Source: Escherichia phage HK6
Sequence record: PP724615.1
Strand: one strand, 5' to 3'
DNA: 64,000 nt
Positions 8,535-45,038 of the stretch are shown here, one piece after another (the first letter of the stretch is position 1; each line of letters begins with the position of its first letter). Below the pieces are notes generated by a model. The model searched no databases. It was not told the origin of the DNA and was given only the letters and a program-made list of their open reading frames with translations. The translations under genes and the position numbers were made by a program.

Positions 8535-8825
8535 TTAGTCCTCTGGATTATCATCCAGGAAATTTTTAATAGCTTCGTGCATAGTTTCTTTACGAAGCTG
8601 ACGTCCAATCAAAATATGATTAGCCTCTACTCGACCATTAGGTAAACGATCCGCCAGAACTACTACAGGAACTTGGCGCACACCAAATTTCTGCATTAAT
8701 TCTGTATTATCAGTCTCTTTATGGATTTCCAAATTATAGTCATTGACTACTTTATCAAATACTGGCTCAAACATTTTGCAAGGATTGCAAGTGGAACCTT
8801 TCAATAGATATACTAATTTACTCAT
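8535..8825 (-). CDS. Thioredoxin-like protein (96 aa)
   Basis: CxxC motif (CNPC) in a thioredoxin-sized protein. Confidence 0.7.
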   Translation of the reverse strand: MSKLVYLLKGSTCNPCKMFEPVFDKVVNDYNLEIHKETDNTELMQKFGVRQVPVVVLADRLPNGRVEANHILIGRQLRKETMHEAIKNFLDDNPED

Positions 8826-15378: not shown

Positions 15379-15652
15379 AACGACAAGTAAAAGAACTGGA
15401 GCTATTAGTACGTTGAGTGGTTATTTCACCGCGTTTGCTAATAGTAACGGCTGGAGTAGAGAAGTTTTTATTAGTATATATTTCTACTTTACCATTACGT
15501 TCCTTAACATCACGAACTTTACCATACTCGGTAATAATGCCGTTCTGTTGGACTTTAACATTACCATTTTTCATAGAAACTTTGGTAGATGCCAGAGAAC
15601 CGAAACTAACTGCGGAGATCACCAGTGCAATAATAAACTTATTCATCTTCAT
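15347..15652 (-). CDS. Secreted small protein with acidic C-terminus
   Basis: Signal-peptide-like MKMNKFIIALVISAVSFGSLAS at the internal Met; ends CRYDCDFEGEDE. Confidence 0.5.
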   Translation of the reverse strand: MKMNKFIIALVISAVSFGSLASTKVSMKNGNVKVQQNGIITEYGKVRDVKERNGKVEIYTNKNFSTPAVTISKRGEITTQRTNSSSSFTCRYDCDFEGEDE

Positions 15653-15920
15653 CCTCTCCACTACAATCACGACATACATCATAATCGTTGAAAGAACGTT
15701 CGTGAGCTTCACACCACCAAGAACAAGAATCGCAGAGAAACATTTCGGTTTTCTCCAGTGCTTGACCTAAAAGATCATCAGCTTCCTCAGCAGTAATCTT
15801 CAATCCGCACACATCTGCCACACGTTCTTTAATTAAACGACCTGCTTTGTGGTAAGACATGCAGGTTCCCGCAACATCATGTTCAAGAACATGAACAGCA
15901 CAGTCTAGACGAGTTTTCAT
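15639..15920 (-). CDS. Cys-rich small protein with acidic C-terminus (93 aa)
   Basis: Multiple Cys pairs; ends CRDCSGEDEDE. Confidence 0.5.
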   Translation of the reverse strand: MKTRLDCAVHVLEHDVAGTCMSYHKAGRLIKERVADVCGLKITAEEADDLLGQALEKTEMFLCDSCSWWCEAHERSFNDYDVCRDCSGEDEDE

Positions 15921-15950
15921 TTCAAACCTCTCTCATCAATTTATAAACAT

Positions 15951-15979
15951 ATTATAGCAAGAAAAGAGAGGTTTAGCAA
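15951..15979 (-). promoter_or_regulatory. Conserved early promoter (-35 TTGCTA, 17 bp, -10 TATAAT)
   Basis: Minus-sense TTGCTAaacctctcttttcttgcTATAAT; one of about 22 copies of this module. Confidence 0.65.
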
Positions 15980-15996
15980 ATGAATTATTTCAGAAT

Positions 15997-16344
15997 TTAG
16001 TCATAGCACCACCATAACCCACGTTTACGCATGTCATGATCGCGATTATAATCATAATTTTCTGGATCTTTCATCACGCGGTGGAGTTCTTGACGATTCC
16101 CTTGACGAACCATTTTATTAGAATGCCACTTAACATTCTTACTAATAGAATTCCAGTTATAACCATCCTTTTTCTCATTACGAATGGTTGCTTCCTTCAT
16201 TTCTTTTTTGATGTCGTCCCAGGATTTGGCATAAATAACACGAATCCAGTAGCCATTTTCTTTGAGGAAAGAATATTCTTGAGAGAATTGTTCTTTAGAC
16301 TTCCACCACTGATCACCAGATTGTCTACGATAAGTACGGCTCAT
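15997..16344 (-). CDS. Hypothetical Trp-rich protein (115 aa)
   Basis: ORF track. Confidence 0.5.
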   Translation of the reverse strand: MSRTYRRQSGDQWWKSKEQFSQEYSFLKENGYWIRVIYAKSWDDIKKEMKEATIRNEKKDGYNWNSISKNVKWHSNKMVRQGNRQELHRVMKDPENYDYNRDHDMRKRGLWWCYD

Positions 16345-16426
16345 ATTACCTCCATTAAGTCTTTTAAATTAACCTAATGTGGATGAATTTTATTATACAT
16401 ATATTATGTACCTTTATACAGAAAAA

Positions 16427-16454
16427 CCCCAGACTACTTATTCAATAGCTGGGG
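16427..16454 (-). terminator. Hairpin with T-runs on both sides
   Basis: CCCCAG..CTGGGG stem; TTTTTCTG follows on the minus strand. Confidence 0.55.
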
Positions 16455-16465
16455 TTTGTTATTAA

Positions 16466-16753
16466 TTACAGATCGGGGCGTTCATCTTCGAACGCTACAA
16501 AGCCATCAAATTCATCATTTGAGATGCCCATAATCATTGCTTCCATTTTCCTAATCTCCGAAATTTTCATGCCTGCTTTACTATTCTTATAATATTTGCG
16601 AGGGTTCCCGCACATCCAACAAGAACAGATGCAAGGAGTAGTAGTGATAATACCTAACCGCTTAGGGCTTTCTTCATGTGGAAAGACTGCCCAATACTTC
16701 TTGCGGTTGTTCTTCACACGTTGCCGGTGATGGCGTCTTAATGCTCGATCCAC
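16466..16753 (-). CDS. Hypothetical basic Cys-containing protein (95 aa)
   Basis: ORF track. Confidence 0.5.
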   Translation of the reverse strand: MDRALRRHHRQRVKNNRKKYWAVFPHEESPKRLGIITTTPCICSCWMCGNPRKYYKNSKAGMKISEIRKMEAMIMGISNDEFDGFVAFEDERPDL

Positions 16754-16834
16754 ACATTTCTCCTAAAACTTGGGAGATAAACGGAGTTTGCTCGACTACC
16801 TTGCGTAGCTGGGAGAAATCGTATCCAAACCCCA

Positions 16835-17203
16835 TTACATCGCCTGAGTAAATGTACGACTAATAACGTCGTTCTGCTGTTCACGAGTCAGTGCATTAAA
16901 ACGTACAGCGTACCCTGAAACACGGATAGTTAATTGAGGGTATTTTTCAGGATGTTTCTGTGCATCCAAAAGCTGATCACGGCTTAATACATTGACATTT
17001 AGGTGCTGACCACCTTCGATTTGAGGGGCGACTTCCACTTTGACTTCACGGAAGGCTTCGGGATCGAATTGTGGTGTGATACCTTCTAGATCTTCAACTA
17101 GAACTTTCTGTTTAAGTTCACCATTGTCGGAGTATAGCTGAATAATCTGATTTTCATGAACAAGGTTAATTACGCCAGATTTAAGATTTTGATATGCTTT
17201 CAT
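16835..17203 (-). CDS. grcA: Autonomous glycyl radical cofactor, GrcA/YfiD-like (122 aa)
   Basis: C-terminal [11 protein letters not shown]...[37 protein letters not shown] matches E. coli GrcA nearly residue-for-residue, including the RVSGY glycyl-radical motif. Confidence 0.85.
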
Positions 17204-17226
17204 TAGATCTCCCCGATGTTAGAATT

Positions 17227-17302
17227 TGGTAGTTAGTAGTGGATTTGAACCACTGTAGTCACTCCGTATGAAGGAGGTGCATAACCACTCTGCCAACTAA
17301 CT
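17227..17302 (-). tRNA. tRNA with CAT anticodon (Met-type)
   Basis: T-arm AGTGG-TTCAAAT-CCACT, 7-bp acceptor stem, encoded CCA; anticodon read by eye. Confidence 0.65.
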
Positions 17303-17398
17303 ATTATGTTTTACTAGACTAAGTAAGTATTCTTTATACTCTTTAGACCAATTAGCTTTTTTAAACTTTCCTGGACGCATAGTCTTAATTCCTAAATT

Positions 17399-17476
17399 TG
17401 GTACTCCGGGAGGGATTTAAACCCCCCGATCTCTCGGTTATCAGCCGAGTGCTTTAGATCGCTAAGCTACCGAAGC
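17399..17476 (-). tRNA. tRNA-Ile (GAT)
   Basis: Anticodon arm CTCGG-CTGATAA-CCGAG, acceptor GCTTCGG/CCGGAGT with G-U pairs. Confidence 0.65.
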
Positions 17477-17477
17477 A

Positions 17478-17705
17478 TTAACATTTAATTGCAGAACGTT
17501 TACCATTTCTAGGCGCACCTGGAAGTCGTGCACATTCCGCCATTTTTCTTTTTATTTTGTAGATATTTTCTTGTGTTTGTTCTTCAGGCTTAATACCTGA
17601 AACACTACACCACTGATTACCATCCCATGCAGTAATGATCATAACACCATTACTCATGATCTTTTCTGTGAAAGTAATCCTCATTATAGCAACTCGTCTA
17701 AGCAA
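17478..17705 (-). CDS. Hypothetical protein (75 aa)
   Basis: ORF track. Confidence 0.4.
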   Translation of the reverse strand: MLRRVAIMRITFTEKIMSNGVMIITAWDGNQWCSVSGIKPEEQTQENIYKIKRKMAECARLPGAPRNGKRSAIKC

Positions 17706-17977
17706 GAGGTATATTTAATTTTACCATCTTTATCTACTTTGATTTCGACTTCCGCTCGTGGTACTTGACGAACTACACCATGAATCATCTTATAGCGAAT
17801 GCCTTTAGCTGGTTCATGATCTTTTGGAAATACTTGCTTAACCGTTACTACCTTGAAACCCTCACGCGGTGTTAACACTACTACTTGATCACCTTCTTTG
17901 ATTTTCCAAGAGCTAGGAAATTCATAGGTATAGCGTTGACCACCAGTTTGGAACACAACAGAAAGATAACGTTTCAT
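17684..17977 (-). CDS. Hypothetical protein (97 aa)
   Basis: Promoter module upstream at about 17975-18040. Confidence 0.5.
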   Translation of the reverse strand: MKRYLSVVFQTGGQRYTYEFPSSWKIKEGDQVVVLTPREGFKVVTVKQVFPKDHEPAKGIRYKMIHGVVRQVPRAEVEIKVDKDGKIKYTSCLDELL

Positions 17978-18226
17978 TTGGTTTCCCTCTCATTAATTTA
18001 TATAAATATTATAACAAGAAATAAGAGAGAAAGCAAATGAATTTTTAATAAAGTTTAGTCACTTCATAAACTATACTACGAGATTCTTTATTACGTTCTA
18101 TTAAATTAGCATATGCTTTTTCAGCTTCATTTTTAGTATTAAAGTCTATAACGTGGGAGGTATTAGCTCTGTTTGATTGGCTATACCAGATAACTACTAG
18201 GAGTTTAAACATACTAGTCCTTAAAT

Positions 18227-18313
18227 TGGTGCTGGGCACAGGATTCGAACCTGCAATGGGATTACTCCTCCTGATTACAAATCAGGTGCATTCAACCATT
18301 CTGCCAACCCAGC
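18227..18313 (-). tRNA. tRNA, anticodon TGT by eye, with long variable arm (87 nt)
   Basis: Anticodon arm CCTGA-TTTGTAA-TCAGG; T-arm GCAGG-TTCGAAT-CCTGT; variable-arm hairpin; isotype uncertain. Confidence 0.6.
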
Positions 18314-18478
18314 AGAACCCGTTATTTCAACGGGATTTCTTTTTCAATAACAGGGGACTTATCAGTCATGACTGTCATTGCCATTTGTTGTAGAAATTCA
18401 AAGGTGAAGGCTACACGTTCTTCACCAATCTCTACTTCTACACGTTTCTTTTGTTTGTCGATCTTAACTTTTAGGTTA

Positions 18479-18730
18479 TCAGCCATTAGAGAGTACAGTA
18501 CTGGTAGTTGGCAATACTACAGATGAAGCAACAGTGTTTAAATGCTTTCTCCAGTCTAGGTTAAATTGTTTTCGAAACTCTTCATAAGGTTCTTCTGGAT
18601 AAAAGCTAAAACCTCCTTTCTCATCATTCAGGATAACAGAGCCGTCAGTTTGTTCGTATGCTCGGTATGTTTCTCCAATAACAATAACTCGTTTATCGGT
18701 ACTTTTATTACGAAACTCAAAAACGTGCAT
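18479..18730 (-). CDS. Hypothetical protein (83 aa)
   Basis: ORF track. Confidence 0.45.
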   Translation of the reverse strand: MHVFEFRNKSTDKRVIVIGETYRAYEQTDGSVILNDEKGGFSFYPEEPYEEFRKQFNLDWRKHLNTVASSVVLPTTSTVLSNG

Positions 18731-18746
18731 AATGTTTCCTTAAAGT

Positions 18747-18822
18747 TGGAGCGGCTAGAGGGAATCGAACCCTACTCAGCGAGGCTTGGAAGGCCTGCGA
18801 CACAACCCGTGTGCTTAACCGC
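18747..18822 (-). tRNA. tRNA-Gly (TCC)
   Basis: T-loop TTCGATT; anticodon loop CTTCCAA. Confidence 0.6.
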
Positions 18823-18830
18823 TTATTATT

Positions 18831-18906
18831 TGGCTGGAGAAGGAGGAATCGAACCTACCATTAACGGAGTCAAAGGCCGTTGTGCTAACCGTTACACTAC
18901 TCTCCA
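18831..18906 (-). tRNA. tRNA-Gln (TTG)
   Basis: Acceptor TGGAGAG/TTCTCCA; anticodon loop CTTTGAC; T-loop TTCGATT. Confidence 0.65.
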
Positions 18907-18912
18907 ATTATT

Positions 18913-18988
18913 TGGCTGGGATGCCACGGATCGAACGTGGAACCTTCGGAGTCAGAGGCCGACGATCTGCCAATTGATCTACATCCCA
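18913..18988 (-). tRNA. tRNA-Gln (CTG)
   Basis: Acceptor TGGGATG/CATCCCA; D-stem GATC/GATC; anticodon loop CTCTGAC; T-arm CCACG-TTCGATC-CGTGG. Confidence 0.7.
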
Positions 18989-18997
18989 AGAATGCTA

Positions 18998-19234
18998 TTA
19001 ACTAGATGCTGTTTCTACTGGCTGAGATACAGCCGGCTGTTCTAACGTATCTGGTGCTGATACGGAGAAAAGAGCTTGTAATGCTGCAATATCACGCTCG
19101 TAAGTATCAATACGAGTAGTAAGAGTATCTACCATTTGTTTATGGTAAGCTAAGTTATTCTGAGACTCATCTCGAAGAGTTTGCAGTTCTGCAAGACGTG
19201 TTAACATAATTTCACTAATTAAAGCATTACTCAT
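18998..19234 (-). CDS. Hypothetical coiled-coil protein (78 aa)
   Basis: ORF track. Confidence 0.4.
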   Translation of the reverse strand: MSNALISEIMLTRLAELQTLRDESQNNLAYHKQMVDTLTTRIDTYERDIAALQALFSVSAPDTLEQPAVSQPVETASS

Positions 19235-19424
19235 TTGTTTCTCCTAAGTTTTCCTGTTCTTCTAAACGTTTGCCTTCATGATCTACTCGAATAACTCCGC
19301 ATCCTTCGCAAATCACAACTGCACCATAACCTTCTTTGACCTCAGCTTCTGTAATCAAACCAGAAAGATCACCAGTATCTCTGCCCCACATATCAATGGA
19401 GCATTGTTTGCAGAAATCAGCCAT
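19227..19424 (-). CDS. Small zinc-ribbon-like protein (65 aa)
   Basis: CKQCS and CEGCG Cys pairs. Confidence 0.4.
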   Translation of the reverse strand: MADFCKQCSIDMWGRDTGDLSGLITEAEVKEGYGAVVICEGCGVIRVDHEGKRLEEQENLGETNE

Positions 19425-19451
19425 ATTTTATTTCCTATTTAAGTTAATTTG

Positions 19452-19528
19452 GGGTGGCTAGTGGAATTCGAATCCACATAGGCCTGATTCACAATCAGGA
19501 TCATTAACCAATTATGATATAGCCACAA
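19452..19528 (-). tRNA. tRNA-His (GTG)
   Basis: Anticodon arm CCTGA-TTGTGAA-TCAGG; T-arm GTGGA-TTCGAAT-TCCAC; acceptor GTGGCTA/TAGCCAC. Confidence 0.75.
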
Positions 19529-19892
19529 TTGAAAACTCGCAGGGTTAGCGAAACCTTCCTCAATTAGCATGTTCTAGAATACTAATCAAGTTATCTCCTA
19601 TTGCACGCAGCTCAAGACGAGTACGAATTTTCAATTGTGGCGGCTCTCAGAAACTCTTCTACTCTAGTCTTAGCAGCTTACTCCCGAACGCATGTCGGGG
19701 AAGTCTTACCAAGAGCATCAAATAGCACCGTTACACTTTGAGCCATAGGTGTATCAAGAAGCAGAAGGACTTGAACCTTCACGAGATAGACCATTTATCT
19801 CAGCCGCTTTATGAGGTATGTTGCTGGGAGTGGATGTTCCCCATAAACCTTTTAGGCAGCCCCGTCTACCGATTCCGGCATACTTCAAGATT

Positions 19893-19986
19893 TGGAGGTA
19901 GGTAAGGGGATCGAACCCTTACACCGTATCACTACGATCAACCGATTTCAAGTCGGAGTCCAGCGCCAGCCGTTGGATTGACCTAC
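19893..19986 (-). tRNA. tRNA-Ser (TGA), long variable arm
   Basis: T-arm AAGGG-TTCGATC-CCCTT; acceptor GGTAGGT/ACCTACC; anticodon loop CTTGAAA. Confidence 0.65.
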
Positions 19987-19998
19987 CGTATAAATTGT

Positions 19999-20093
19999 TT
20001 GGCGGAAAAGATGGGAGTTGAACCCATAAGGCGGTATTGCTACCACTCAACCGATTTCCAATCGGGTTTAGTCACCAGTCTATTTGCTTTTCC
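19999..20093 (-). tRNA. tRNA-Ser (GGA), long variable arm
   Basis: T-arm ATGGG-TTCAACT-CCCAT; acceptor GGAAAAG/CTTTTCC; anticodon loop TTGGAAA; 5' end overlaps the stop of the HNH gene by about 14 nt. Confidence 0.6.
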
Positions 20094-20664
20094 GTTGTTC
20101 TGTTAATACTTTTGGGCTTAATCCGGTTAGTTTAGTATATCGTCTACGTAAAGTGGACTCTGATACTTCTAGATCTTTAGCTGCCTTAACCCACCCCATT
20201 AATAAAACCTTTTCAGTTATGTCTTCTAAGGACAATTCTGGTTTTATTAACTTTCCTGTAGGTTTTGGCTTACAATTTGTACATGTTACTGATCTCTGAA
20301 GCATTAGATTTCCACATAAGGGGCAAGGTACTCTACTATCAGACCATCCATTATCTTTATTAGTTTTCTTCTGATGTTCTATTTTTGACAAAACTTGAAG
20401 ATTATCTTTAGATAGATTCAGCCTATCTCTATCCTTGTGATCTACTTCTAATTCAGGGTCAAATAGATTATATAAGTCCCCAAATACATGAGAAATAATT
20501 CGGTGTATAAGTACCGAAGTTTGCTTACCATTTATCTGTAATTTTACAGCAGGGTATCCATCAACTATATATCTTGATAAAATTTTATTAGTAAATGTAG
20601 ATAACACATCCCCTGTTTCATTTACTAAATACCCTGGTGCATCTTTTATTGGTACAAACTGCAT
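20080..20664 (-). CDS. HNH homing endonuclease (194 aa)
   Basis: N-terminal IKDAPGYLVNETGDV (NUMOD4-like), HNH core VDHKDRDRLNLSKDNLQVLSKIEHQKK, C-terminal HTH-like tail. Confidence 0.75.
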   Translation of the reverse strand: MQFVPIKDAPGYLVNETGDVLSTFTNKILSRYIVDGYPAVKLQINGKQTSVLIHRIISHVFGDLYNLFDPELEVDHKDRDRLNLSKDNLQVLSKIEHQKKTNKDNGWSDSRVPCPLCGNLMLQRSVTCTNCKPKPTGKLIKPELSLEDITEKVLLMGWVKAAKDLEVSESTLRRRYTKLTGLSPKVLTEQRKSK

Positions 20665-20680
20665 ACATTACCCTATAAGT

Positions 20681-20765
20681 TGGTGGGGCTAGGGAGACTC
20701 GAACTCCCACGCATTTAAGCTACGGAATCTAAGGCCGTATTGTCTACCAGTTCCAGCATAGCCCC
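20681..20765 (-). tRNA. tRNA-Leu (TAG), long variable arm
   Basis: T-arm GGGAG-TTCGAGT-CTCCC; acceptor GGGGCTA/TAGCCCC; anticodon loop CTTAGAT. Confidence 0.65.
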
Positions 20766-20770
20766 AAATT

Positions 20771-20844
20771 TGGTGGAGAAAGAGGGAGTTGAACCCTCGT
20801 CTTCTGCGTGCAAAGCAGATGTTCTACCATTAAACTATATCCCC
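20771..20844 (-). tRNA. tRNA-Ala (TGC)
   Basis: T-arm GAGGG-TTCAACT-CCCTC; anticodon arm TCTGC-TTTGCAC-GCAGA. Confidence 0.65.
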
Positions 20845-21129
20845 AAATTCTTTAGTTTACTAAGGCTATTAGCTCGGCGTAACTACAGCACCTTCGCTTC
20901 GAGCGGAAGGAACCGCGTCATCTCGCAAACCCGATACACTATTCAGTTGCCGCTGAATCTAGTGGACTAATCTAGAACTTCTCCCGAATCGTAGGGATCG
21001 TGCTTTTTGGCAGCCAGTCCTAGGTCGAGCTAATACCTTAGTGAACTATGATGAGGATTTCTCCTCATCAATTTATATTGATATTATAACAAGAAATTAA
21101 GCATCAAGCAACTGCATTTTTCTTGAAAT

Positions 21130-21209
21130 TGGTAGATCGCCTGGGACTCGAACCCAGAACCTTCCGATTAAAAGTCGGATGCTACTAAACCTATTGAGCT
21201 AGCGATCTA
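21130..21209 (-). tRNA. tRNA-Lys (TTT)
   Basis: Acceptor AGATCGC/GCGATCT; anticodon arm TCCGA-CTTTTAA-TCGGA; T-arm CTGGG-TTCGAGT-CCCAG. Confidence 0.7.
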
Positions 21210-21397
21210 TTAGTAACCATTATACACTTCTTTAATAGAGTGGACTTTTAAGTAAGGGTGATTAGTACTAAACTCTACCATTACTTCATCCCAATTTTTA
21301 CCGTAATGAGCAAGTAAGGATTTTGATGTATTCTTACCTGAACGTTTGTCACTTACTACTAATCGAAATACTTTCATTTCGAAATCCCCTATTAAAA

Positions 21398-21474
21398 TGG
21401 AAGCGGGTGCAGGAATCGAACCTACCTCTTTCTAGCTTATGAGACTAGTGATCTCTACCAGAGATCTAACCCGC
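21398..21474 (-). tRNA. tRNA with CAT anticodon (Met/fMet/Ile2-type)
   Basis: Anticodon arm CTAGT-CTCATAA-GCTAG; T-loop TTCGATT; acceptor pairing imperfect, ends approximate. Confidence 0.5.
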
Positions 21475-21481
21475 AATTGTT

Positions 21482-21557
21482 TGGTCAGTGCGGCAGGACT
21501 CGAACCTGCGACCCGAAGCATCCAAGGCTCCCACGCTACCAACTGCGCTACGCACTG
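21482..21557 (-). tRNA. tRNA-Pro (TGG)
   Basis: Acceptor CAGTGCG/CGCACTG; anticodon loop CTTGGAT; T-arm GCAGG-TTCGAGT-CCTGC. Confidence 0.75.
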
Positions 21558-21566
21558 TTAATTCTT

Positions 21567-21764
21567 TTATTGTGGAGGAATATTAATAATTCGTCCATCT
21601 ACACAATAAACGGTACTAGGAATCGTACTATATATGTAGAAATTCTTTATATTACTCTCTCCGCCACAGAAATTTTTAGCAAATTCATACTCTTTATTAA
21701 TGGTTGAGTCAAATTTAAAACAACCAGTAAGTAGGAATACAGATAGTAATAAAACTTTCTTCAT
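21567..21764 (-). CDS. Small lipoprotein (65 aa)
   Basis: Signal peptide with lipobox LLTGC; promoter module upstream. Confidence 0.5.
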   Translation of the reverse strand: MKKVLLLSVFLLTGCFKFDSTINKEYEFAKNFCGGESNIKNFYIYSTIPSTVYCVDGRIINIPPQ

Positions 21765-22217
21765 TTAGCTTTCCTTCTCTTCACTTTATAAGATATATTA
21801 TACAGAGAATTAAGCAGAATAGCAAATGAATTTTTAATAAATTTACTTATTGTGTAGGCCACCTGGAGGCTACCAACCCCACGGCTGACAAAGAAGTTTG
21901 CGAGACCTCTCTTAAATGCCAGAATAGACCCGCCGATCTATCGGAACCTACATAATAAGTAAACTTTATAGTGTCATTCTAGACAGGACTCGAACCTGTT
22001 ATCACTTGTGCGGACTTACGAGAACCATTCTTTCACTCGAATCGAACGAGCTTCTGCCCTCGCCAAGCTGGTTTCCCCATCAACCACGCTAGAATGTTTG
22101 ATTATTTTCAGTGCAAGAGTCCGAGTCTTGGACACGACCGCTTCGCAAGTACATAGGCTGCTTATCATGAGTCAGCACTTCCGAATTGCTAGCTCCGTGT
22201 TCTGCACTGAAATTTTG

Positions 22218-22565
22218 TTAATTTAACAGTAAAGTACGATCTACTTCACCATTAATTGTTCGGCATTCTTCTGGGATCTCTGGTGTAGCCTTATATTCCC
22301 ACCATTCAGAACCGTCGTATTCACCACGTTCTAACCAAGTTCCATCAGTAAACCACACGTTACCATAAAGCAATTGCCCACCATAACCAGAATCATATTT
22401 AAAGTCTAGATTATTTAGAAAATCTTCAATATCTTTTTCTGTATAACCTACGGGCAATACCCAAACTTCTTTGTCTCCATAATAACCGAATTCTATCTTA
22501 ATACACTTAACTTCAGAATTAGTATTCTTTAGGGCAAGTAACAACTCTTCTTTAGCATTAATCAT
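22218..22565 (-). CDS. Hypothetical protein (115 aa)
   Basis: ORF track. Confidence 0.5.
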   Translation of the reverse strand: MINAKEELLLALKNTNSEVKCIKIEFGYYGDKEVWVLPVGYTEKDIEDFLNNLDFKYDSGYGGQLLYGNVWFTDGTWLERGEYDGSEWWEYKATPEIPEECRTINGEVDRTLLLN

Positions 22566-22591
22566 AGCATATTTCTCGTGCTAGTTTAGTT

Positions 22592-22667
22592 TGGTACACC
22601 CACTAGGACTTGAACCTAGAACCCCCCGCTTAAGAGGCGGTAGCTCTAACCATTGAGCTATGGATGT
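22592..22667 (-). tRNA. tRNA-Lys (CTT) by eye
   Basis: Acceptor ACATCCA/TGGGTGT; anticodon loop CTCTTAA; T-arm CTAGG-TTCAAGT-CCTAG. Confidence 0.55.
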
Positions 22668-22843
22668 ATTAAATTACTTTTTCCAGTTCATCAGCTATGG
22701 CTTTGATTTTTTCAAAGTTTACATCACTTATAATGATACCTTCCAGTGACAGAGATATTCTAGCATTTTTTATAGCAGATTCTTTTATCTGCTCTATCTC
22801 TTCTGGAGTAAACTCCCTACGTTCCATAGCTAACCTACCTTAT

Positions 22844-22920
22844 TTGGCGCGACCGATGGGATTCGAACCCACATTCTCTCCCGTGACAGGGGAGTACCAT
22901 TACCAAACCAGCCCCGGTCG
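22844..22920 (-). tRNA. tRNA-Asp (GTC)
   Basis: Acceptor GCGACCG/CGGTCGC; anticodon arm CTCCC-CTGTCAC-GGGAG; T-loop TTCGAAT. Confidence 0.7.
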
Positions 22921-22930
22921 CATAATTCAT

Positions 22931-23116
22931 TTACTCAGCTTTGAGTTTTTCAATAGCTGCATTAAGTTCCTTAAGAAACTCTTTTCGTACATTAAGACGA
23001 TTAAGACTTACTAGTATATCATGTTTAAGTTCTTCGATGTATTTCTTCTCAACTTCAATATTGTTGATAGTGCTATCACGATGAACTTCTAGCTGTGCAA
23101 TTACATTCTTGGACAT
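22931..23116 (-). CDS. Hypothetical coiled-coil protein (61 aa)
   Basis: ORF track. Confidence 0.35.
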   Translation of the reverse strand: MSKNVIAQLEVHRDSTINNIEVEKKYIEELKHDILVSLNRLNVRKEFLKELNAAIEKLKAE

Positions 23117-23230
23117 GCTTGTTTCCTCAGTTATTAATGAAAATGGTATCTGTGGCTGAATTCGATGTCAGCAATGATAGCTGGTTGGCTACCGGTTTAC
23201 TTAACTCTACACAGAATTTGGCGGGCCGTG

Positions 23231-23313
23231 TAGGATTCGAACCTACGTTGTCTTTCGACACGGATTAACAATCCGCCGCCAAACCGCTTGGCTAACGACC
23301 CTAAATTTATATT
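23231..23313 (-). tRNA. tRNA, anticodon GTT (Asn-type) with unusually long variable arm (83 nt)
   Basis: Acceptor GGGTCGT/ACGGCCC; D-stem GCCA/TGGC; anticodon arm GCGGA-TTGTTAA-TCCGT; 13-nt variable arm; T-arm GTAGG-TTCGAAT-CCTAC. Confidence 0.6.
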
Positions 23314-23453
23314 GCTGACTAGGATTTTCACCTAGACGGAGTTAGCACCGTAGCGTGTAGCGGCATACCTCTCCAAACCGTGCCTCATCTTTCAATTACG
23401 GAGACAGTGTTCCTACGCGTGCCTGAATTGTTTTAACAATTCTTTCAGCAAAT

Positions 23454-23529
23454 TGGACGACCGCATGAGATTTGAACTCACATAAAAAGGATTTGCAATC
23501 CTTCGCCTAAGCCATTCAGCCAACGGTCG
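23454..23529 (-). tRNA. tRNA-Cys (GCA)
   Basis: Anticodon arm AAGGA-TTGCAAA-TCCTT; T-loop TTCAAAT; acceptor CGACCGT/GCGGTCG. Confidence 0.65.
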
Positions 23530-23598
23530 ATTTATCTTATTCTATCATGTTGCTTCTCCAGTTCAATTTATGTAATTATTATACAGAACTTTTGGAAA

Positions 23599-23886
23599 CT
23601 AAGCAACTACATTTTTTAAAAATTTGATGCCTTTCTTTTTCTTCTTATATTTCCACGTTAATGGATTCTGTCGATTATGAACGCTTGAGATCTTTGTCTC
23701 GTCAAAGTTCTTCAATATCATGTAATCACAAGATAATTGTTCTAGTGGAATGTGATCACCATCAAAAGCATATACATAAGGCTGTTGACTAGCACGATAA
23801 TGATAGACTTTGTTAATTCTACGTTTCAGCGACTTATCCGCGCAGTAAATAAAGAAGTTTTCAGGATGCATCAGCAGCTCCTTCAA
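23599..23886 (-). CDS. Hypothetical protein (95 aa)
   Basis: Promoter module upstream at about 23540-23620. Confidence 0.5.
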   Translation of the reverse strand: MKELLMHPENFFIYCADKSLKRRINKVYHYRASQQPYVYAFDGDHIPLEQLSCDYMILKNFDETKISSVHNRQNPLTWKYKKKKKGIKFLKNVVA

Positions 23887-23888
23887 AT

Positions 23889-23963
23889 TGGTGCACCCTG
23901 TTCGTATCGAACGAACCTCTCAAGCTCTTCAGGCAAGCGCTAATCCATCTCAGCTAAAGGTGC
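23889..23963 (-). tRNA. tRNA-like, possible Phe (GAA), weak anticodon stem
   Basis: Good acceptor (GCACCTT/AGGGTGC) and T-arm (GTTCG-TTCGATA-CGAAC) but the anticodon stem has two mismatches; may be degenerate. Confidence 0.4.
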
Positions 23964-23969
23964 AAATTT

Positions 23970-24040
23970 TGGCAGGGGTAAAGGTATTCGAAACCTTTTC
24001 ATGGGTTTTGGAGGCCCATTTGCAACCTATGCGTACCCCA
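23970..24040 (-). tRNA. tRNA-Trp (CCA) candidate, short D region
   Basis: T-arm AAGGT-TTCGAAT-ACCTT; anticodon loop CTCCAAA; only about 71 nt, 5' end approximate. Confidence 0.45.
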
Positions 24041-24049
24041 ATTATTAAT

Positions 24050-24124
24050 TGGCACACCCAACGAGGATCGAACTCGTGTTCCCACTGTGAAAGAGTAGTG
24101 TCCTAACCGCTAGACGATAGGTGC
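24050..24124 (-). tRNA. tRNA-Glu (TTC)
   Basis: D-stem GTCT/GGAC; anticodon arm CTACT-CTTTCAC-AGTGG; T-arm ACGAG-TTCGATC-CTCGT. Confidence 0.7.
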
Positions 24125-24131
24125 ATTAAAT

Positions 24132-24219
24132 TGGTGGGCGTTAATGGAGTCGAACCACTCGAGTCGCAATGACCAGGGATTTACAATCCCCTCCGCTACC
24201 ACTTACGGAATAAACGCCC
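24132..24219 (-). tRNA. tRNA-Tyr (GTA), long variable arm
   Basis: Anticodon arm GGGGA-TTGTAAA-TCCCT; D-arm TTCC..GG.AG resembles bacterial tRNA-Tyr; acceptor GGGCGTT/AACGCCC. Confidence 0.7.
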
Positions 24220-24417
24220 AAATTCTCTTTAAGGTAGCCAGTGTTACCGCACTGACTAGGAGTTATCGGTAAAATGGTGGGGGCCATCTGCCAAAAATTT
24301 ACTCTGCTAAAGTAAGAACTACCTTAAAAAGAACTTTCCAAATTAGATAAATATTATACCAAGTTTTATAGTATTGGGCAAGTCAAATTTTAAAGAACTT
24401 GCCCAATGCTGTATTAG

Positions 24418-24693
24418 TTAGTCGAACTTAGGAGTGACAGTTAAGGAGAATGGAAGTTCGAAAACTTCTTCCCCCTCATTACTAACGGTAACTACACGAC
24501 CTTTAAGTTCAGACATTGAAATATCAATATCAGCTTTTGCATCCGGAGCCATGCCAGCTTCAACACATTTAGCTTTAATTTCCGGCAGAAGTTCTACATC
24601 GTAGAAATAAAGCCATTCAATCTCACCTTCCCAGCCTTCCCAGGATTTACAGATTGCACTTTCAATACCAGCTGCTATAACACGATTTTGCAT
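24418..24693 (-). CDS. Hypothetical protein (91 aa)
   Basis: Promoter module upstream at about 24700-24770. Confidence 0.5.
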   Translation of the reverse strand: MQNRVIAAGIESAICKSWEGWEGEIEWLYFYDVELLPEIKAKCVEAGMAPDAKADIDISMSELKGRVVTVSNEGEEVFELPFSLTVTPKFD

Positions 24694-24783
24694 TCATTAA
24701 CTCCTTCATCAATTTATATAACTATTATATCAGAAATTTAAAGCAAAAGGCAAGTACATTTTTAAAAATTCTGTTTGGAGGAG

Positions 24784-24990
24784 CTAAACTCCAGATTCTT
24801 CAGCCAAGTCTAGACTAATAAGAGATATAGCCATAATTGCCGCTCCATGTTCTTTTTCTCCAGTTTCTTTAGCTAGAGTTATAATATCAAGAAATTGCTT
24901 ATGAAAATCTGCAACCTCTTGAGTTAAACCCGCCTCAGCAATCATACCTTTAAGCATGAAACGTTGTGCGGTAATTTCAGGATTAGCCAT
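24784..24990 (-). CDS. Hypothetical protein (68 aa)
   Basis: ORF track. Confidence 0.4.
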   Translation of the reverse strand: MANPEITAQRFMLKGMIAEAGLTQEVADFHKQFLDIITLAKETGEKEHGAAIMAISLISLDLAEESGV

Positions 24991-25164
24991 GTTGTTTCTC
25001 CAGTTTCATCTTTAATAGTCTACAAATAAAATCAATGTCTTCATCCGTGCCTAGATCTCTATCTTCAAGAGTTGCCTTGAAGTTTTTAGTCAACTCCATG
25101 AGAATAACTTCTCTAGAACGACGTGTTGGCGGAGGTGGATGTCTATACATCTTATTTCCTTAAT

Positions 25165-25241
25165 TTGGTAGGGGTGGTGGGATTCGAACCCACAAAACCT
25201 GAATTTTAAGTCCAGTACCTATGCCAATTCGATTACACCCC
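25165..25241 (-). tRNA. tRNA with TAA anticodon (Leu-type) but short variable arm
   Basis: Acceptor GGGGGTG/CACCCCT; anticodon arm CTGGA-CTTAAAA-TTCAG; T-arm GTGGG-TTCGAAT-CCCAC; 77 nt. Confidence 0.55.
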
Positions 25242-25343
25242 CATGTAATCAGTTTATTAGTTGATACATATTATAGCCTAGTGAAAATCCTACTACTAGT
25301 CCCACAAACCAACCAATATAGTAATCTTTTAGTTTCACAGGTA

Positions 25344-25529
25344 TTATCCTCGTTCAATATCTAGGGAAATACCACAGTTAGGATTAATACCTGTACCATT
25401 GCAATTTGGGCAAACCCAGATATTGCAAAAAGTATCTCCTGCTTCTGCATCAGAACTTTCACCAATTCCCCTACACTCAGGGCAGGCACATTCTTCTAGC
25501 TCTTGCTTGAGTTCTTGAAACTTGGACAT
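25344..25529 (-). CDS. Small zinc-ribbon protein (61 aa)
   Basis: CPECRG...CPNCNG Cys pairs. Confidence 0.45.
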   Translation of the reverse strand: MSKFQELKQELEECACPECRGIGESSDAEAGDTFCNIWVCPNCNGTGINPNCGISLDIERG

Positions 25530-25538
25530 ATAGTCTCC

Positions 25539-25727
25539 TTAGTCAATTACTTTTGAGGCTTCTAAAGCATTGACGTAGTAAACATCTTCTACATTATACA
25601 TATAGTCTACTACTTTGTCCATAGCATGGAGTTCGGATGTAGCCTTTACTAGTCTGTACCCTTGTTTAAACTCGTCCGAACGTTCTCTATCTTGTGCAAA
25701 TTTAACAGAAACTATGAATAATTCCAT
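25539..25727 (-). CDS. Hypothetical protein (62 aa)
   Basis: ORF track. Confidence 0.4.
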   Translation of the reverse strand: MELFIVSVKFAQDRERSDEFKQGYRLVKATSELHAMDKVVDYMYNVEDVYYVNALEASKVID

Positions 25728-25745
25728 TAATTGTCCTTATTTAAT

Positions 25746-25823: not shown

Positions 25824-25829
25824 CAAAAT

Positions 25830-25918: not shown

Positions 25919-25940
25919 CGAATTTATAAGATATATTATA

Positions 25941-26510: not shown

Positions 26511-26634
26511 TCAAGCAATCAAATTTTTTAACTTTTTAGAGGAGAATCATAGGGCACTTAAGGGTAGCAGATAAGTGGTGAGGACCAAAATTTGTGACCC
26601 CACTAAAAATCCGGGGGCAATTTTTAAAGATCCC

Positions 26635-43163: not shown

Positions 43164-45038
43164 ATGAATCGCAATGAAGAACTAAAGTATAAAGAAATGC
43201 AGGCGTTAATTAGAAACTGCAAAGAGATTATCGAAGGGTCAGCAGATGAAGAGCTGCTGTTTAATAATGCTAATAAACCCTCAGAACGTTTCCCTACACA
43301 AAGGGATATGCTTGCAGGTGAGTTGAGTAAGTATCTGATTCTAGAAGAAATGCCAATTCAGATTCGAAATGCTCATATGATTGGGGATATTCATTTCCAT
43401 GATGCTGATTATGCTGCATTAGGCATGACTAATTGTTGTCTGGTAGCTCTGGAAGATATGTTAAAGAATGGTATGAAGGTTGGTAATGCTGAAATTAGCA
43501 CTCCAAACTCTATTACCACTGCGGCGGCTATTACTGCTCAAATTATCACTCAGGTTAGCTCCCATCAGTATGGTGGTACTTCTGTAGATCGCCTTGATGA
43601 AGTATTAGCCCCTTATGTTCGTAAATCCTATGACAAAAATCATGCGTTTGCAAAACGTTGGACTAAGGATGAAGCCAAAGCATCCGTAATGGCTACGGAG
43701 ATGACTGAAAAAGAAGTCTATGACGCTTGTCAGGGTTTAGAATATGAAATCAATACCATGTTCAACTCTAATGGTCAGAGTCCATTTATTACCTTTGGTT
43801 TTGGTCTAGGAACTTCTTGGGAAGCACGTCTAGTACAGAAAGCAATACTGAAAGTACGCATGGATGGTTTAGGTATCAATAAACGTACAGCTATCTTCCC
43901 AAAACTGGTATTTGTACTTCGTGATGGTGTTAACATGAAACCAGGAGATGTTAATTATGACATCAAGAAGTTAGCTATGAAATGTACTGCTGAACGTATG
44001 TATCCAGATTATATCAGCTATGACAAGGTTGTAGAAGTTACTGGAGACTACAAAGTTTCTATGGGCTGCCGTTCATTCCTAGCTGCTACAGAAGATGGTG
44101 AAACTGCCGGTCGTAATAACTTAGGTGTTGTTTCTGTAAACTTGCCTAGAATTGCTATCGAAGCTGAAGGAAATATTGACCTATTCTTTGATTTGCTTGA
44201 GCTACGTGTGGATACAGCGTTAAAAGCATTGGAGTGGAGAGTTGATCGCTTAAAATACATTCAAGCTAAAGCTGCACCTATCCTCTATATGTCCGGAGCC
44301 TTTGGGTTACGCTTGGGGCCTGATGAGTATGTGTTCGATCATTTCTATAACCGTGCTTCTGTATCTCTAGGGTATATTGGTTGCCATGAAATGCTACAGT
44401 TCATGTTTGGCAAAGATGTAGACACAATGTCCGAGACCTGCATCAAGTTTGTTCAGCGTGTATTGCAGTACATGCGGGATAGAGTCGATCAGAAGAAGGA
44501 AGAGACTAAGTTAGGTTATAGCTTGTATGCTACACCGTCAGAGTCCCTATGCGATAGGTTTTGCCGTTTAGATCGTGAATATTTCCCAGAGCATGAAGAT
44601 ATTCTGTCTAAAGGATACTACACTAACTCGCACCACCTTGATGTAGAACGTAAAGTTGCTCCCAATGTGAAATTTGATTATGAATCTAACTTTACTCCTA
44701 TTGCTTCTGGTGGGTGCATTTCCTATGTAGAACTACCAGATATGAAACGATTCCCAGATGCACTGGAATGGGTTATTAATTATGCTGCTAGTAAAGTTCA
44801 TTACTTCGGTATTAATACTCCAGTGGATTCTTGTGGTAAATGTGGATTCTTAGGTGAAACAGTAGCATCCGAAGATGGGTTTAAGTGCCCTATCTGTGGT
44901 AATCATGACCCCGAAACTCTTGAAGTAACTCGTCGAGTTTGTGGGTATCTTGGAAATCCAGGTGCTCGTCCATTTAACCCCGGCAAACAGCACGAGGTAA
45001 TGGGCAGAGTGAAGCATCAAGATATTCGAGCTAAGTAA
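43164..45038 (+). CDS. nrdD: Anaerobic ribonucleoside-triphosphate reductase (624 aa)
   Basis: C-terminal zinc ribbon CGKCGF...CPICG and glycyl-radical motif RVCGYLG. Confidence 0.9.
   Translation: MNRNEELKYKEMQALIRNCKEIIEGSADEELLFNNANKPSERFPTQRDMLAGELSKYLILEEMPIQIRNAHMIGDIHFHDADYAALGMTNCCLVALEDMLKNGMKVGNAEISTPNSITTAAAITAQIITQVSSHQYGGTSVDRLDEVLAPYVRKSYDKNHAFAKRWTKDEAKASVMATEMTEKEVYDACQGLEYEINTMFNSNGQSPFITFGFGLGTSWEARLVQKAILKVRMDGLGINKRTAIFPKLVFVLRDGVNMKPGDVNYDIKKLAMKCTAERMYPDYISYDKVVEVTGDYKVSMGCRSFLAATEDGETAGRNNLGVVSVNLPRIAIEAEGNIDLFFDLLELRVDTALKALEWRVDRLKYIQAKAAPILYMSGAFGLRLGPDEYVFDHFYNRASVSLGYIGCHEMLQFMFGKDVDTMSETCIKFVQRVLQYMRDRVDQKKEETKLGYSLYATPSESLCDRFCRLDREYFPEHEDILSKGYYTNSHHLDVERKVAPNVKFDYESNFTPIASGGCISYVELPDMKRFPDALEWVINYAASKVHYFGINTPVDSCGKCGFLGETVASEDGFKCPICGNHDPETLEVTRRVCGYLGNPGARPFNPGKQHEVMGRVKHQDIRAK

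What the first reader, a model, noticed from the sequence alone, without database searches (positions are those of the whole stretch)
16835..17203. Phage-encoded GrcA-like glycyl-radical cofactor alongside anaerobic NrdD
The 122-aa product matches E. coli GrcA/YfiD almost block-for-block over the C-terminal 70 residues, including the RVSGY glycyl-radical motif. With nrdD (43164-45038), nrdAB, thioredoxin and thyA/frd, the phage carries both aerobic and anaerobic dNTP synthesis plus a spare glycyl-radical domain, suggesting adaptation to oxygen-fluctuating hosts.
Basis: partly seen in the sequence, partly recalled or inferred. Interest (0 to 1): 0.6.

Follow-up and report, generated by a model that had tools for sequence, protein, structure and literature searches.

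The report
Phage GrcA spare part for PFL
A T5-like phage carries a small, strongly conserved gene for a "spare part" that can replace the oxygen-broken tip of the host enzyme pyruvate formate-lyase; the gene is real, but the same kind of phage gene was characterised in phage T4 in 2001 and identical copies are already in GenBank, so it is ordinary.

Summary
Window 16835-17203 (minus strand) encodes a 122-aa protein. Its C-terminal 74 residues are 74% identical to E. coli GrcA/YfiD (E 3e-39), and its last 62 residues match E. coli PflB 698-759 at 49/62, including RVSGYAV. The flanking claims also hold: nrdD, nrdA, nrdB, thyA, a DHFR and a thioredoxin are all present.

The window is a T5-like phage (Tequintavirus), about 96% identical to Salmonella phage Th1. 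The gene is the ortholog of T5.056. Th1 and S131 encode an identical protein, and homologs occur in 1584 phage records. The T4 homolog Vs.6/Y06I was shown biochemically in 2001 to restore oxygen-cleaved PFL.

The gene is under strong purifying selection (dN/dS 0-0.10). It lies in an early tRNA-containing transcription unit.

It is a spare part for host PFL, not for the phage NrdD. It has no similarity to NrdD, and the two genes are 26 kb apart on opposite strands. Neither the window nor the Th1 genome holds an activase, so host PflA and NrdG would be needed.

One under-appreciated point: in jumbo and Aeromonas phages the homolog sits inside nrdD-nrdG operons. This hints at coupling through formate, which PFL produces and NrdD uses as reductant.

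Verdict: already known; low interest.

The parts
16835..17203 (-). grcA-like CDS, 122 aa, ortholog of T5.056. Residues 1-60 form a divergent phage-type N-terminal half. Residues 61-122 form a glycyl-radical domain that mimics PflB 698-759.
   Evidence: dN/dS is 0-0.10 against T5, DT57C and Th1; the C-terminal 62 codons show 0 nonsynonymous against 7-8 synonymous changes.
16904..16924 (-). Codons 94-100, RVSGYAV. This is the PflA (PFL-activating enzyme) substrate heptapeptide. Gly97 (16913-16915) is the predicted radical site, equivalent to PflB Gly734 and GrcA Gly102.
   Evidence: Sequence read. The motif is invariant across 30 homologs. The RVSGYAV peptide is the PFL-AE substrate in PDB 3CB8 (PMC10665898).
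17209..17214 (-). Shine-Dalgarno sequence GGGGAG, 5 nt upstream of the ATG.
   Evidence: sequence read directly.
17227..17302 (-). tRNA-Met(CAU), 23 nt upstream of the CDS on the same strand. It belongs to the same transcription unit.
   Evidence: T5 has the same arrangement.
17399..17476 (-). tRNA-Ile(GAU), in the same unit.
17684..17977 (-). First ORF of the unit, 97 aa, T5.058-like (phrog_4760), function unknown.
17982..18048 (-). Homolog of the annotated T5 early promoter P11 (95.5% identical over 67 nt). Presumed promoter of the unit.
   Evidence: Inferred by homology; the generic promoter scan did not call it.
16466..16753 (-). Downstream ORF of the unit, T5.055-like, 95 aa, Cys-rich (TPCICSCWMCGNPRKY), function unknown (phrog_4499).
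16422..16454 (-). Homolog of the annotated T5 rho-independent terminator that follows T5.055 (33/33 identical). Presumed end of the unit.
43164..45038 (+). nrdD, class III (anaerobic) ribonucleotide reductase, 624 aa, with its own radical motif RRVCGYLG. It is not physically linked to the GrcA gene. It is included because a functional link through formate is inferred.
   Evidence: It matches T4 NrdD (PDB 1h78) at E 3.6e-177. T4-type NrdD uses formate (PMC4493059).
38111..41798 (-). nrdB (38111-39256) and nrdA (39363-41798), the class Ia aerobic ribonucleotide reductase. Context only.
8535..8825 (-). Phage thioredoxin, 96 aa, CNPC motif. Context only.

Best explanation
[quoted passage not shown] It is made early in infection from a promoter-tRNA-mRNA unit. 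Its last 62 residues copy the C-terminal glycyl-radical domain of the host pyruvate formate-lyase (PflB 698-759). The phage has no activase, so the host enzyme PflA would abstract a hydrogen from Gly97 within RVSGYAV. [quoted passage not shown] The inferred benefit follows from host shut-off. T5 shuts off and degrades the host genome, so neither PflB (760 aa) nor host GrcA can be re-made. A 122-aa phage protein then keeps fermentative ATP and formate production running in micro-oxic, fluctuating habitats such as the gut. Formate is also the reductant of the T4-type NrdD that the phage encodes. Shown here: the homology, the motif, the fold, purifying selection, the genomic context and the absence of an activase. 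Inferred: activation by PflA, docking to cleaved PflB and the physiological payoff.
For: Sequence: PF01228 at E 3.7e-18. The best NCBIfam hit is TIGR04365 GrcA at E 3.5e-35. PDB YfiD 6owr scores E 1.4e-30 and PflB 698-759 scores E 5e-27. Identity to E. coli GrcA is 74% over 74 aa. The last 62 residues match PflB at 49/62. RVSGYAV is exact and invariant in 30 homologs.

Fold: the AlphaFold model's top PDB matches are YfiD (6owr) and PFL (1mzo, 1cm5, 2pfl).

Full-length homology to the validated T4 protein Vs.6: 52% identity, E 5e-39. T4 Y06I and YfiD are activated by PFL-AE and restore O2-cleaved PFL (PMC8683613).

Selection: dN/dS is 0-0.10, with 0 nonsynonymous changes in the C-terminal 62 codons. 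Homologs occur in 1584 phage records.

Expression context: a Shine-Dalgarno sequence, and homologs of the T5 promoter P11 and the T5 terminator.

No activase: tblastn with T4 NrdG finds nothing better than E 3.4 in the window or in the complete Th1 genome, and neither holds a plausible CxxxCxxC enzyme. T5-type phages are reported to carry nrdD without nrdG (PMC3653736).

Formate link: formate is the reductant of T4/E. coli-type NrdD and the product of PFL (PMC4493059; PMC4390871).
Against: No experiment exists for any T5-group protein. No paper in the searchable library discusses it.

The score against the curated GrcA model is below its cut-off (121 against 170 bits). However, the validated T4 protein also fails it (151 bits), while E. 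coli GrcA passes (234 bits).

The N-terminal half, which in YfiD is needed for binding cleaved PFL and for efficient activation (PMC8683613), is highly diverged. It carries a T5-group-specific insertion, so target recognition could differ.

The structural model has only moderate confidence (mean pLDDT 69).

The host shut-off rationale and the formate benefit are inference.
Confidence: 0.8

Rival explanations
1. The protein is a functional component of the phage anaerobic ribonucleotide-reductase system itself. It would serve as a spare glycyl-radical domain for NrdD, or as a partner or substrate of an NrdG-type activase, rather than acting on PFL.
For: In other phage lineages the homolog is embedded in nrd operons. 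Jumbo phages have nrdD-grcA-nrdG, with the grcA stop overlapping the nrdG start. Aeromonas phages have nrdD-nrdG-grcA-nrdC-nrdH. Vibrio phage D479 has nrdA-nrdB-grcA.
Against: There is no sequence similarity to the window's NrdD (E 5.7). The NrdD radical loop is RRVCGYLG, next to a Zn-ribbon-like CxxC/CxxC region, whereas this protein copies PflB at 49/62. The T4 homolog works on PFL with PFL-AE. T5-like phages have no nrdG at all, and their grcA is more than 10 kb from any nrd gene. Operon embedding is equally well explained by formate supply.
Confidence: 0.05
2. It mainly serves another PFL-family enzyme of the host, such as 2-ketobutyrate formate-lyase TdcE, rather than PflB.
For: Several GenBank records name the ortholog '2-ketobutyrate formate-lyase'. 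TdcE is a close PflB paralog that also makes formate (PMC5600444, listed). The diverged N-terminal half could redirect specificity.
Against: Those names are automatic annotations of the shared domain. The only tested homologs act on PflB. PflB is the abundant, constitutive enzyme. No TdcE comparison was made here.
Confidence: 0.07
3. It is a decoy or inhibitor. It would soak up host PflA or occupy PFL so as to redirect or shut down host fermentation, instead of repairing it.
For: It carries the exact PflA substrate motif. Phages often encode mimics of host protein parts. The N-terminal half differs from host GrcA.
Against: Every residue that is invariant in functional GrcA and PFL radical domains is kept, under strict purifying selection. 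A decoy would not need this. The T4 homolog restores PFL activity rather than blocking it.
Confidence: 0.05
4. It is a functionless captured fragment of the 3' end of a host pflB or grcA gene.
For: The C-terminal half looks like a host gene fragment.
Against: The full-length ORF has an RBS. dN/dS is 0-0.10, with 15 synonymous and 0 nonsynonymous differences from Th1. The gene is conserved in about 435 T5-like records and about 1100 other phage records. The N-terminal half is conserved among phages (phrog_1209 matches the full length).
Confidence: 0.01

Closest known systems
Phage T4 Vs.6 (Y06I), autonomous glycyl radical cofactor (NP_049730; Wagner et al. 2001)
   Same: Both are stand-alone phage proteins of about 120 aa. 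They are homologous over the full length (52% identity, E 5e-39), start with the same MKAYQ, and share the same RVSGYAV domain. Both come from virulent enterobacterial phages that also encode NrdAB and NrdD. The T4 protein was shown to be activated by PFL-AE and to rescue O2-cleaved PFL.
   Different: The T4 C-terminal 62 residues are nearly those of E. coli GrcA (59/62). The T5-group domain is equidistant from GrcA (48/62) and PflB (49/62) and ends FTQAM like PflB. The T5-group N-terminal half has an extra segment of about 8 residues. T4 has its own nrdG, while T5-likes have none. The two phage families are unrelated (Straboviridae and Demerecviridae).
E. coli GrcA/YfiD (P68066; PDB 6owr)
   Same: The C-terminal glycyl-radical domain is 74% identical over 74 aa. 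The predicted fold is the same. Size and architecture are the same.
   Different: The N-terminal 50 residues are not alignable by BLAST or HMM; only a few positions are conserved (M1, Q5, G28, V36). The protein scores 121 bits against the 170-bit cut-off of TIGR04365. It is encoded by a phage and expressed from an early phage promoter, not under the host's own regulation.
E. coli PflB C-terminal glycyl-radical domain (residues 698-759; PDB 1h16, 2pfl)
   Same: 49/62 residues are identical, including RVSGYAV and the terminal FTQ-M.
   Different: The phage protein has only the 62-residue tip plus an unrelated 60-residue N-terminal half. It lacks the barrel and the catalytic Cys418/Cys419, so it cannot be an enzyme on its own.
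T5.056 and its orthologs (DT57C gp049 'putative GrcA'; Th1_045 and S131 'pyruvate formate-lyase')
   Same: These are the same gene. Identity is 95% to T5.056 and 100% to the Th1 and S131 proteins, with the same neighbours: tRNA-Met upstream and T5.055 downstream.
   Different: Nothing of substance differs. Annotations vary (acetyltransferase-related, PFL, RNR subunit, hypothetical).
Short bacterial variants GrcA2 and GrcA3 (NF008341, NF038360; about 80 aa)
   Same: They share the C-terminal radical domain (117 and 91 bits).
   Different: They lack the N-terminal half. The scores are below their cut-offs (158 and 145 bits).

Membership tests
[quoted passage not shown] | Small stand-alone protein (about 120-127 aa) rather than the end of a full-length glycyl radical enzyme | tested here: met
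   The ORF is 122 aa with its own RBS and stop codon. A tRNA gene lies 23 nt upstream.
[quoted passage not shown] | C-terminal glycyl-radical domain (PF01228) with the PFL-type motif RVSGYAV | tested here: met
   PF01228 scores 66.4 bits against a 22.2-bit cut-off. The motif is exact at residues 94-100.
[quoted passage not shown] | The domain closely copies the part of PflB lost or displaced after O2 cleavage (residues about 698-759) | tested here: met
   49/62 identical to E. coli PflB 698-759.
[quoted passage not shown] | Score above the curated equivalog cut-off of TIGR04365 (170 bits) | tested here: not met
   The score is 121 bits. Controls: the validated T4 Vs.6 also fails at 151 bits, and E. 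coli GrcA passes at 234 bits. The cut-off therefore separates bacterial from phage members, not functional from non-functional ones.
[quoted passage not shown] | N-terminal half homologous to that of GrcA, which is needed for cleaved-PFL binding and efficient activation | tested here: inconclusive
   BLAST and HMM alignments stop at about residue 46-51. The multiple alignment shows only scattered conserved positions, with T4 and jumbo-phage sequences as intermediates. The region is fully covered by phage family phrog_1209.
[quoted passage not shown] | Fold of the C-terminal domain like YfiD and the PFL radical domain | tested here: met
   The Foldseek top hits are 6owr (E 4.6e-5) and PFL structures 1mzo, 1cm5 and 2pfl. 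The model has moderate confidence (pLDDT 69).
[quoted passage not shown] | Glycyl radical installed by the PFL-activating enzyme PflA | not testable with these tools
   Only the substrate motif can be checked. This was shown for T4 Y06I and YfiD.
[quoted passage not shown] | Restores catalytic activity to O2-cleaved PflB | not testable with these tools
   Shown only for E. coli YfiD and T4 Y06I (PMC8683613; PMC13450708).
Class III RNR (NrdD) glycyl-radical domain / hypothetical NrdD spare part | Sequence similarity to the C-terminal radical domain of the cognate NrdD (RVCGY loop) | tested here: not met
   BLASTP against the window's NrdD gives E 5.7, with no alignment over the radical loop. 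The NrdD loop is RRVCGYLG.
Full-length pyruvate formate-lyase (TIGR01255), as many GenBank records name it | A barrel of about 750 aa with catalytic Cys418/Cys419 | tested here: not met
   Only profile positions 683-744 of 744 are matched, at 85.9 bits against a cut-off of 994.

The most novel reading that the evidence does not exclude
Phage GrcA is a working part of the phage anaerobic dNTP-supply module rather than a general fermentation aid. After host shut-off it would keep host PFL alive and so secure formate, the obligatory reductant of the T4-type NrdD that these phages encode. The support is comparative. Jumbo phages have a tight nrdD-grcA-nrdG arrangement in which the grcA stop overlaps the nrdG start. 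Aeromonas T4-like phages have nrdD-nrdG-grcA-nrdC-nrdH. Vibrio phage D479 has nrdA-nrdB-grcA. The phage RNR survey I read (PMC3653736) does not mention this synteny. In T5-likes the same logic would hold without physical linkage and with host activases only. A bolder variant is that phage NrdG can itself activate phage GrcA.
Probability: 0.3. Interest if true: 0.5.

Novelty: already known. Interest (0 to 1): 0.22.

Why it matters
As filed, it matters little. It re-finds a gene family known in phages since 2001, and the identical protein is already deposited. Some value remains. No phage GrcA has a demonstrated role in infection. Only two spare-part proteins (YfiD and T4 Y06I) have ever been tested. 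The T5-group protein is a distinct, abundant variant in phages of Salmonella and E. coli, many of them isolated for therapy or biocontrol, whose hosts live in low-oxygen guts. If the formate link to the class III reductase holds, it would explain why phages from at least three lineages keep this gene. It would also give a simple handle on phage performance under gut-like oxygen regimes, namely a grcA deletion with or without added formate.

Tried and rejected
(1) A phage-encoded activase. tblastn with T4 NrdG against the window and the complete Th1 genome found nothing better than E 3.4. The regex CxxxCxxC hit only the 95-aa T5.055-like ORF at 16466-16753 (and, in Th1, a 58-codon non-coding-looking ORF). 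That ORF matches no Pfam family and only a PHROG of unknown function. It is far too small for a radical SAM enzyme, so I rejected it as an activase.

(2) The generic sigma-70 promoter and terminator scan of 16000-18600 gave counts no higher than shuffled sequence and nothing useful on the minus strand. I mapped the annotated T5 promoter and terminator by homology instead.

(3) Similarity to the phage's own NrdD: none.

(4) Literature on the T5-group protein. Searches for 'Tequintavirus' with 'glycyl radical' and for 'T5-like' with 'pyruvate formate-lyase' returned nothing. 'Autonomous glycyl radical cofactor' with 'phage' returned only host-side papers.

(5) Origin of the C-terminal domain. 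The 62-residue identities to PflB (49) and to GrcA (48) are too close to decide which it came from.

(6) Record-by-record co-occurrence of GrcA and NrdD across all phage genomes could not be computed. The search tools list at most 60 rows, so only totals are available: 1584 records with GrcA and 2908 with NrdD, or 435 and 391 at 80% identity or more.

(7) One hit of T4 NrdG in a 109-kb Salmonella phage record (GE_vB_B3, two pieces) was not followed up. It may be a non-T5-like or chimeric record.

Full report
**1. The observation**

It spans 16835..17203 on the minus strand, starts with ATG and encodes 122 aa. A GGGGAG Shine-Dalgarno sequence at 17209-17214 lies 5 nt before the start codon. Codons 94-100 (16904-16924) read RVSGYAV, with Gly97 at 16913-16915.

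The formal comparisons are far beyond chance:
- Pfam Gly_radical PF01228: E 3.7e-18, 66 bits against a 22-bit cut-off.
- PDB 6owr, the NMR structure of E. coli YfiD/GrcA: E 1.4e-30.
- PflB 698-759: E 5e-27.
- BLASTP against E. coli GrcA: 55/74 identical, E 3e-39.

The context claims also hold:
- NrdD at 43164-45038 (+) (PF13597, E 5.5e-172).
- NrdA at 39363-41798 (-), NrdB at 38111-39256 (-) and ThyA at 36742-37581 (-).
- DHFR at 37581-38114 (-) (phrog_316, E 1.2e-34). Pfam DHFR_1 is only sub-threshold at 18.7 bits.
- A CNPC thioredoxin at 8535-8825 (-).

**2. What the window is**

Megablast of 15500-19500 finds 475 phage records, all T5-like (Demerecviridae, Tequintavirus and relatives), at up to 97.7% identity. 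The window aligns at about 90-98% nucleotide identity with Salmonella phage Th1 positions 8.8-74.3 kb.

The protein is 100% identical to the Th1 and S131 products and 95% identical to T5.056. GenBank names for the ortholog vary:
- 'putative autonomous glycyl radical cofactor GrcA' (DT57C gp049)
- 'pyruvate formate-lyase'
- '2-ketobutyrate formate-lyase'
- 'acetyltransferase-related protein'
- 'ribonucleotide reductase subunit'

tblastn finds homologs in 1584 of 50,697 phage records. About 435 are at 80% identity or more (T5-likes). About 1000 are at 50-56% (T4-likes, where the gene is vs.6).

**3. Is it a real, working gene?**

Yes. Against T5, DT57C and Th1, dN/dS is 0-0.10. The copy in Th1 differs by 15 synonymous and 0 nonsynonymous substitutions. 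The 62 C-terminal codons show 7-8 synonymous and no nonsynonymous changes against T5 and DT57C. The whole length matches phage family phrog_1209 (E 8e-48).

Mapping the annotated T5 regulatory features by homology places promoter P11 at 17982-18048. The rho-independent terminator that follows T5.055 maps to 16422-16454, at 33/33 identity.

The inferred early transcription unit, all on the minus strand, runs in this order:
1. P11
2. the T5.058-like ORF (17684-17977)
3. tRNA-Ile (17399-17476)
4. tRNA-Met (17227-17302)
5. grcA-like CDS
6. the T5.055-like ORF (16466-16753)
7. terminator

A generic promoter/terminator scan was uninformative.

**4. What it is a spare part for**

The last 62 residues match E. 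coli PflB 698-759 at 49/62 and E. coli GrcA at 48/62. The match covers every residue that is invariant in a 30-sequence alignment of phage and bacterial homologs. RVSGYAV is the heptapeptide used as substrate of the PFL-activating enzyme (PDB 3CB8; PMC10665898).

The phage's own NrdD has a different radical loop (RRVCGYLG). It shows no similarity to this protein (E 5.7). So the domain is a copy of the host PFL tip, not of the phage reductase.

An AlphaFold2 model built on the 30-sequence alignment has moderate confidence (mean pLDDT 69). Its C-terminal helix/hairpin/helix retrieves YfiD (6owr) and PFL (1mzo, 1cm5, 2pfl) as the top PDB matches. The N-terminal 36 residues are predicted as four beta-strands at pLDDT about 73. 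The corresponding half of YfiD is disordered in solution but is needed for binding cleaved PFL and for efficient activation (PMC8683613). I treat the predicted N-terminal structure as unproven.

**5. Mechanism**

The established knowledge comes from Wagner et al. 2001, as cited in PMC8683613, PMC13450708 and PMC12338860:
- O2 cleaves radical-bearing PflB at Gly734.
- E. coli YfiD/GrcA and T4 Y06I receive a glycyl radical from PflA (PFL-AE).
- They bind cleaved PflB and restore catalysis. The radical passes from the GrcA glycine to PflB Cys419.

The window protein is homologous over its full length to T4 Vs.6/Y06I (52% identity, E 5e-39). By inference it works the same way, through Gly97.

The phage brings no activase. 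T4 NrdG finds nothing in the window or in the complete 110-kb Th1 genome (best E 3.4). The only CxxxCxxC motif in an ORF of any size is in the 95-aa T5.055-like protein, which matches no radical SAM family. This agrees with the report that T5-type phages carry nrdD without nrdG (PMC3653736). Both phage glycyl-radical proteins must therefore rely on host PflA and NrdG (inference).

Why a phage would carry the gene is also inference. It rests on the established fact that T5, like T4, shuts off and degrades the host genome. After infection neither the 760-aa PflB nor host GrcA can be re-made, so a cheap early phage protein preserves fermentative acetyl-CoA, ATP and formate production when oxygen fluctuates.

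**6. Relation to NrdD**

In this window the two genes are 26 kb apart, on opposite strands and in different units. None of 29 T5-like loci sampled from IMG/VR has any nrd gene within 10 kb of grcA. 'Alongside' is therefore true only at the level of the genome.

There is, however, a real biochemical connection. The window's NrdD is a close relative of T4 NrdD (PDB 1h78, E 3.6e-177), which belongs to the formate-dependent NrdD1/NrdDc group (PMC4493059). Formate is the product of PFL (PMC4390871).

Comparative genomics gives this some weight:
- In about 350-kb jumbo phages (K64-1-like, Munch and metagenomic relatives) the order is nrdD-grcA-nrdG, with the grcA stop overlapping the nrdG start.
- In Aeromonas T4-likes (AsFcp_4, the 235-kb phage 65 type and a 225-kb relative) it is nrdA-nrdB-nrdD-nrdG-grcA-nrdC-nrdH.
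- In Vibrio phage D479 it is nrdA-nrdB-grcA.
- In T4 itself, in Slopekvirus and in the T5-likes there is no adjacency.

The association is thus recurrent but limited to certain lineages, and those lineages are not fully independent. It is compatible with co-regulation of functions needed under the same low-oxygen conditions. It does not show a direct GrcA-NrdD interaction. The phage RNR survey I read does not mention it.

**7. Comparison with the known family, and membership**

Met:
- stand-alone small protein
- PF01228 domain with RVSGYAV
- close copy of PflB 698-759
- YfiD/PFL-like predicted fold

Not met:
- The curated TIGR04365 cut-off (121 against 170 bits). The biochemically validated T4 protein also fails it (151 bits), while E. 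coli GrcA passes (234 bits). The cut-off therefore separates bacterial from phage sequences rather than function.

Inconclusive:
- Homology of the N-terminal half to bacterial GrcA.

Not testable here:
- radical installation by PflA
- rescue of cleaved PFL

One small evolutionary note. The T4 C-terminal domain is almost that of E. coli GrcA (59/62). The T5-group domain is equidistant from GrcA and PflB and closest to other phage copies (52-53/62). This suggests circulation of the gene among phages, with occasional exchange with hosts.

**8. Verdict**

The feature is real, correctly identified and functional by every sequence-based criterion. It is already known: the family was characterised in T4 in 2001, the T5 ortholog has been annotated since the T5 genome, and the identical protein is in GenBank.

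Interest is low (about 0.2). The most novel reading not excluded is that phage GrcA belongs functionally to the anaerobic dNTP module through formate supply. I give this about 0.3 probability and moderate interest if true.

Noticed in passing
L009, L010, L014, L016, L017 (gene at 6001-6363); L008 6001-6384; L011 6001-6372; L048-L050, L078, L099: In other phage lineages the GrcA homolog is embedded in ribonucleotide-reductase operons. Jumbo phages of about 350 kb have nrdD-grcA-nrdG, with the grcA stop overlapping the nrdG start. Aeromonas T4-likes have nrdD-nrdG-grcA-nrdC-nrdH. Vibrio phage D479 has nrdA-nrdB-grcA. The phage RNR survey PMC3653736 does not mention this.
   Followed up: partly
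window 16466-16753 (-) and 16674-16835 (-): Directly downstream of grcA lie two overlapping ORFs. One is a 95-aa Cys-rich protein (TPCICSCWMCGNPRKY; T5.055-like, phrog_4499). The other is a 53-aa ORF (phrog_31464) that abuts the grcA stop codon. DT57C annotates both, T5 annotates only the longer one, and Th1 has a 113-codon open frame there. The function is unknown, and which ORF is real (or whether a frameshift joins them) is unresolved.
   Followed up: partly
window 43164-45038 (+); whole Th1 genome (L005-L007): The phage encodes the class III reductase NrdD but no NrdG activase anywhere in the genome of its closest relative. The phage enzyme must therefore be activated by host NrdG.
   Followed up: yes
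window 17227-29536 (-): Twenty-two tRNA genes, all on the minus strand, are interspersed with small ORFs. The grcA gene sits at the distal end of this cluster, 23 nt after tRNA-Met. Aeromonas phage 31 also has its vs.6 homolog directly after its tRNA cluster (L018).
   Followed up: partly
window 36742-37581 (-): The thymidylate synthase gene has no detectable nucleotide similarity to the thyA of Th1, although the flanking genes are 95-97% identical. This looks like a mosaic replacement of the allele.
   Followed up: partly
window 45900-46736 (+) and 35083-35532 (-): The window encodes a SIR2-family protein (PF02146, E 9e-25) and a NADAR-domain protein (PF08719, E 7e-22). Both are NAD/ADP-ribose-related functions that could bear on host defence or counter-defence.
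   Followed up: no
window 42059-42820 (-): A PhoH-like ATPase lies between nrdA and nrdD. This arrangement was already noted for T5, SPC35 and EPS7 in PMC3653736.
   Followed up: no
window 15997-16344 (-): A 115-aa basic protein of family DUF7295 (PF23967, E 3e-53) ending in ...RGLWWCYD. Its function is unknown.
   Followed up: no
L003 15558-15920 (T4 vs.6) versus E. coli GrcA: The C-terminal 62 residues of T4 Vs.6 are 59/62 identical to E. coli GrcA, while its N-terminal half is phage-type. This suggests recent exchange or conversion of only the radical domain with the host gene. The T5-group copy shows no such host-like half.
   Followed up: partly
H103 (MG969406.1, Salmonella phage GE_vB_B3, 109 kb): A 109-kb unannotated Salmonella phage record gives a two-piece match to T4 NrdG (44.6% identity). 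It is unclear whether it is a T5-like phage with an activase or a different or chimeric record.
   Followed up: no
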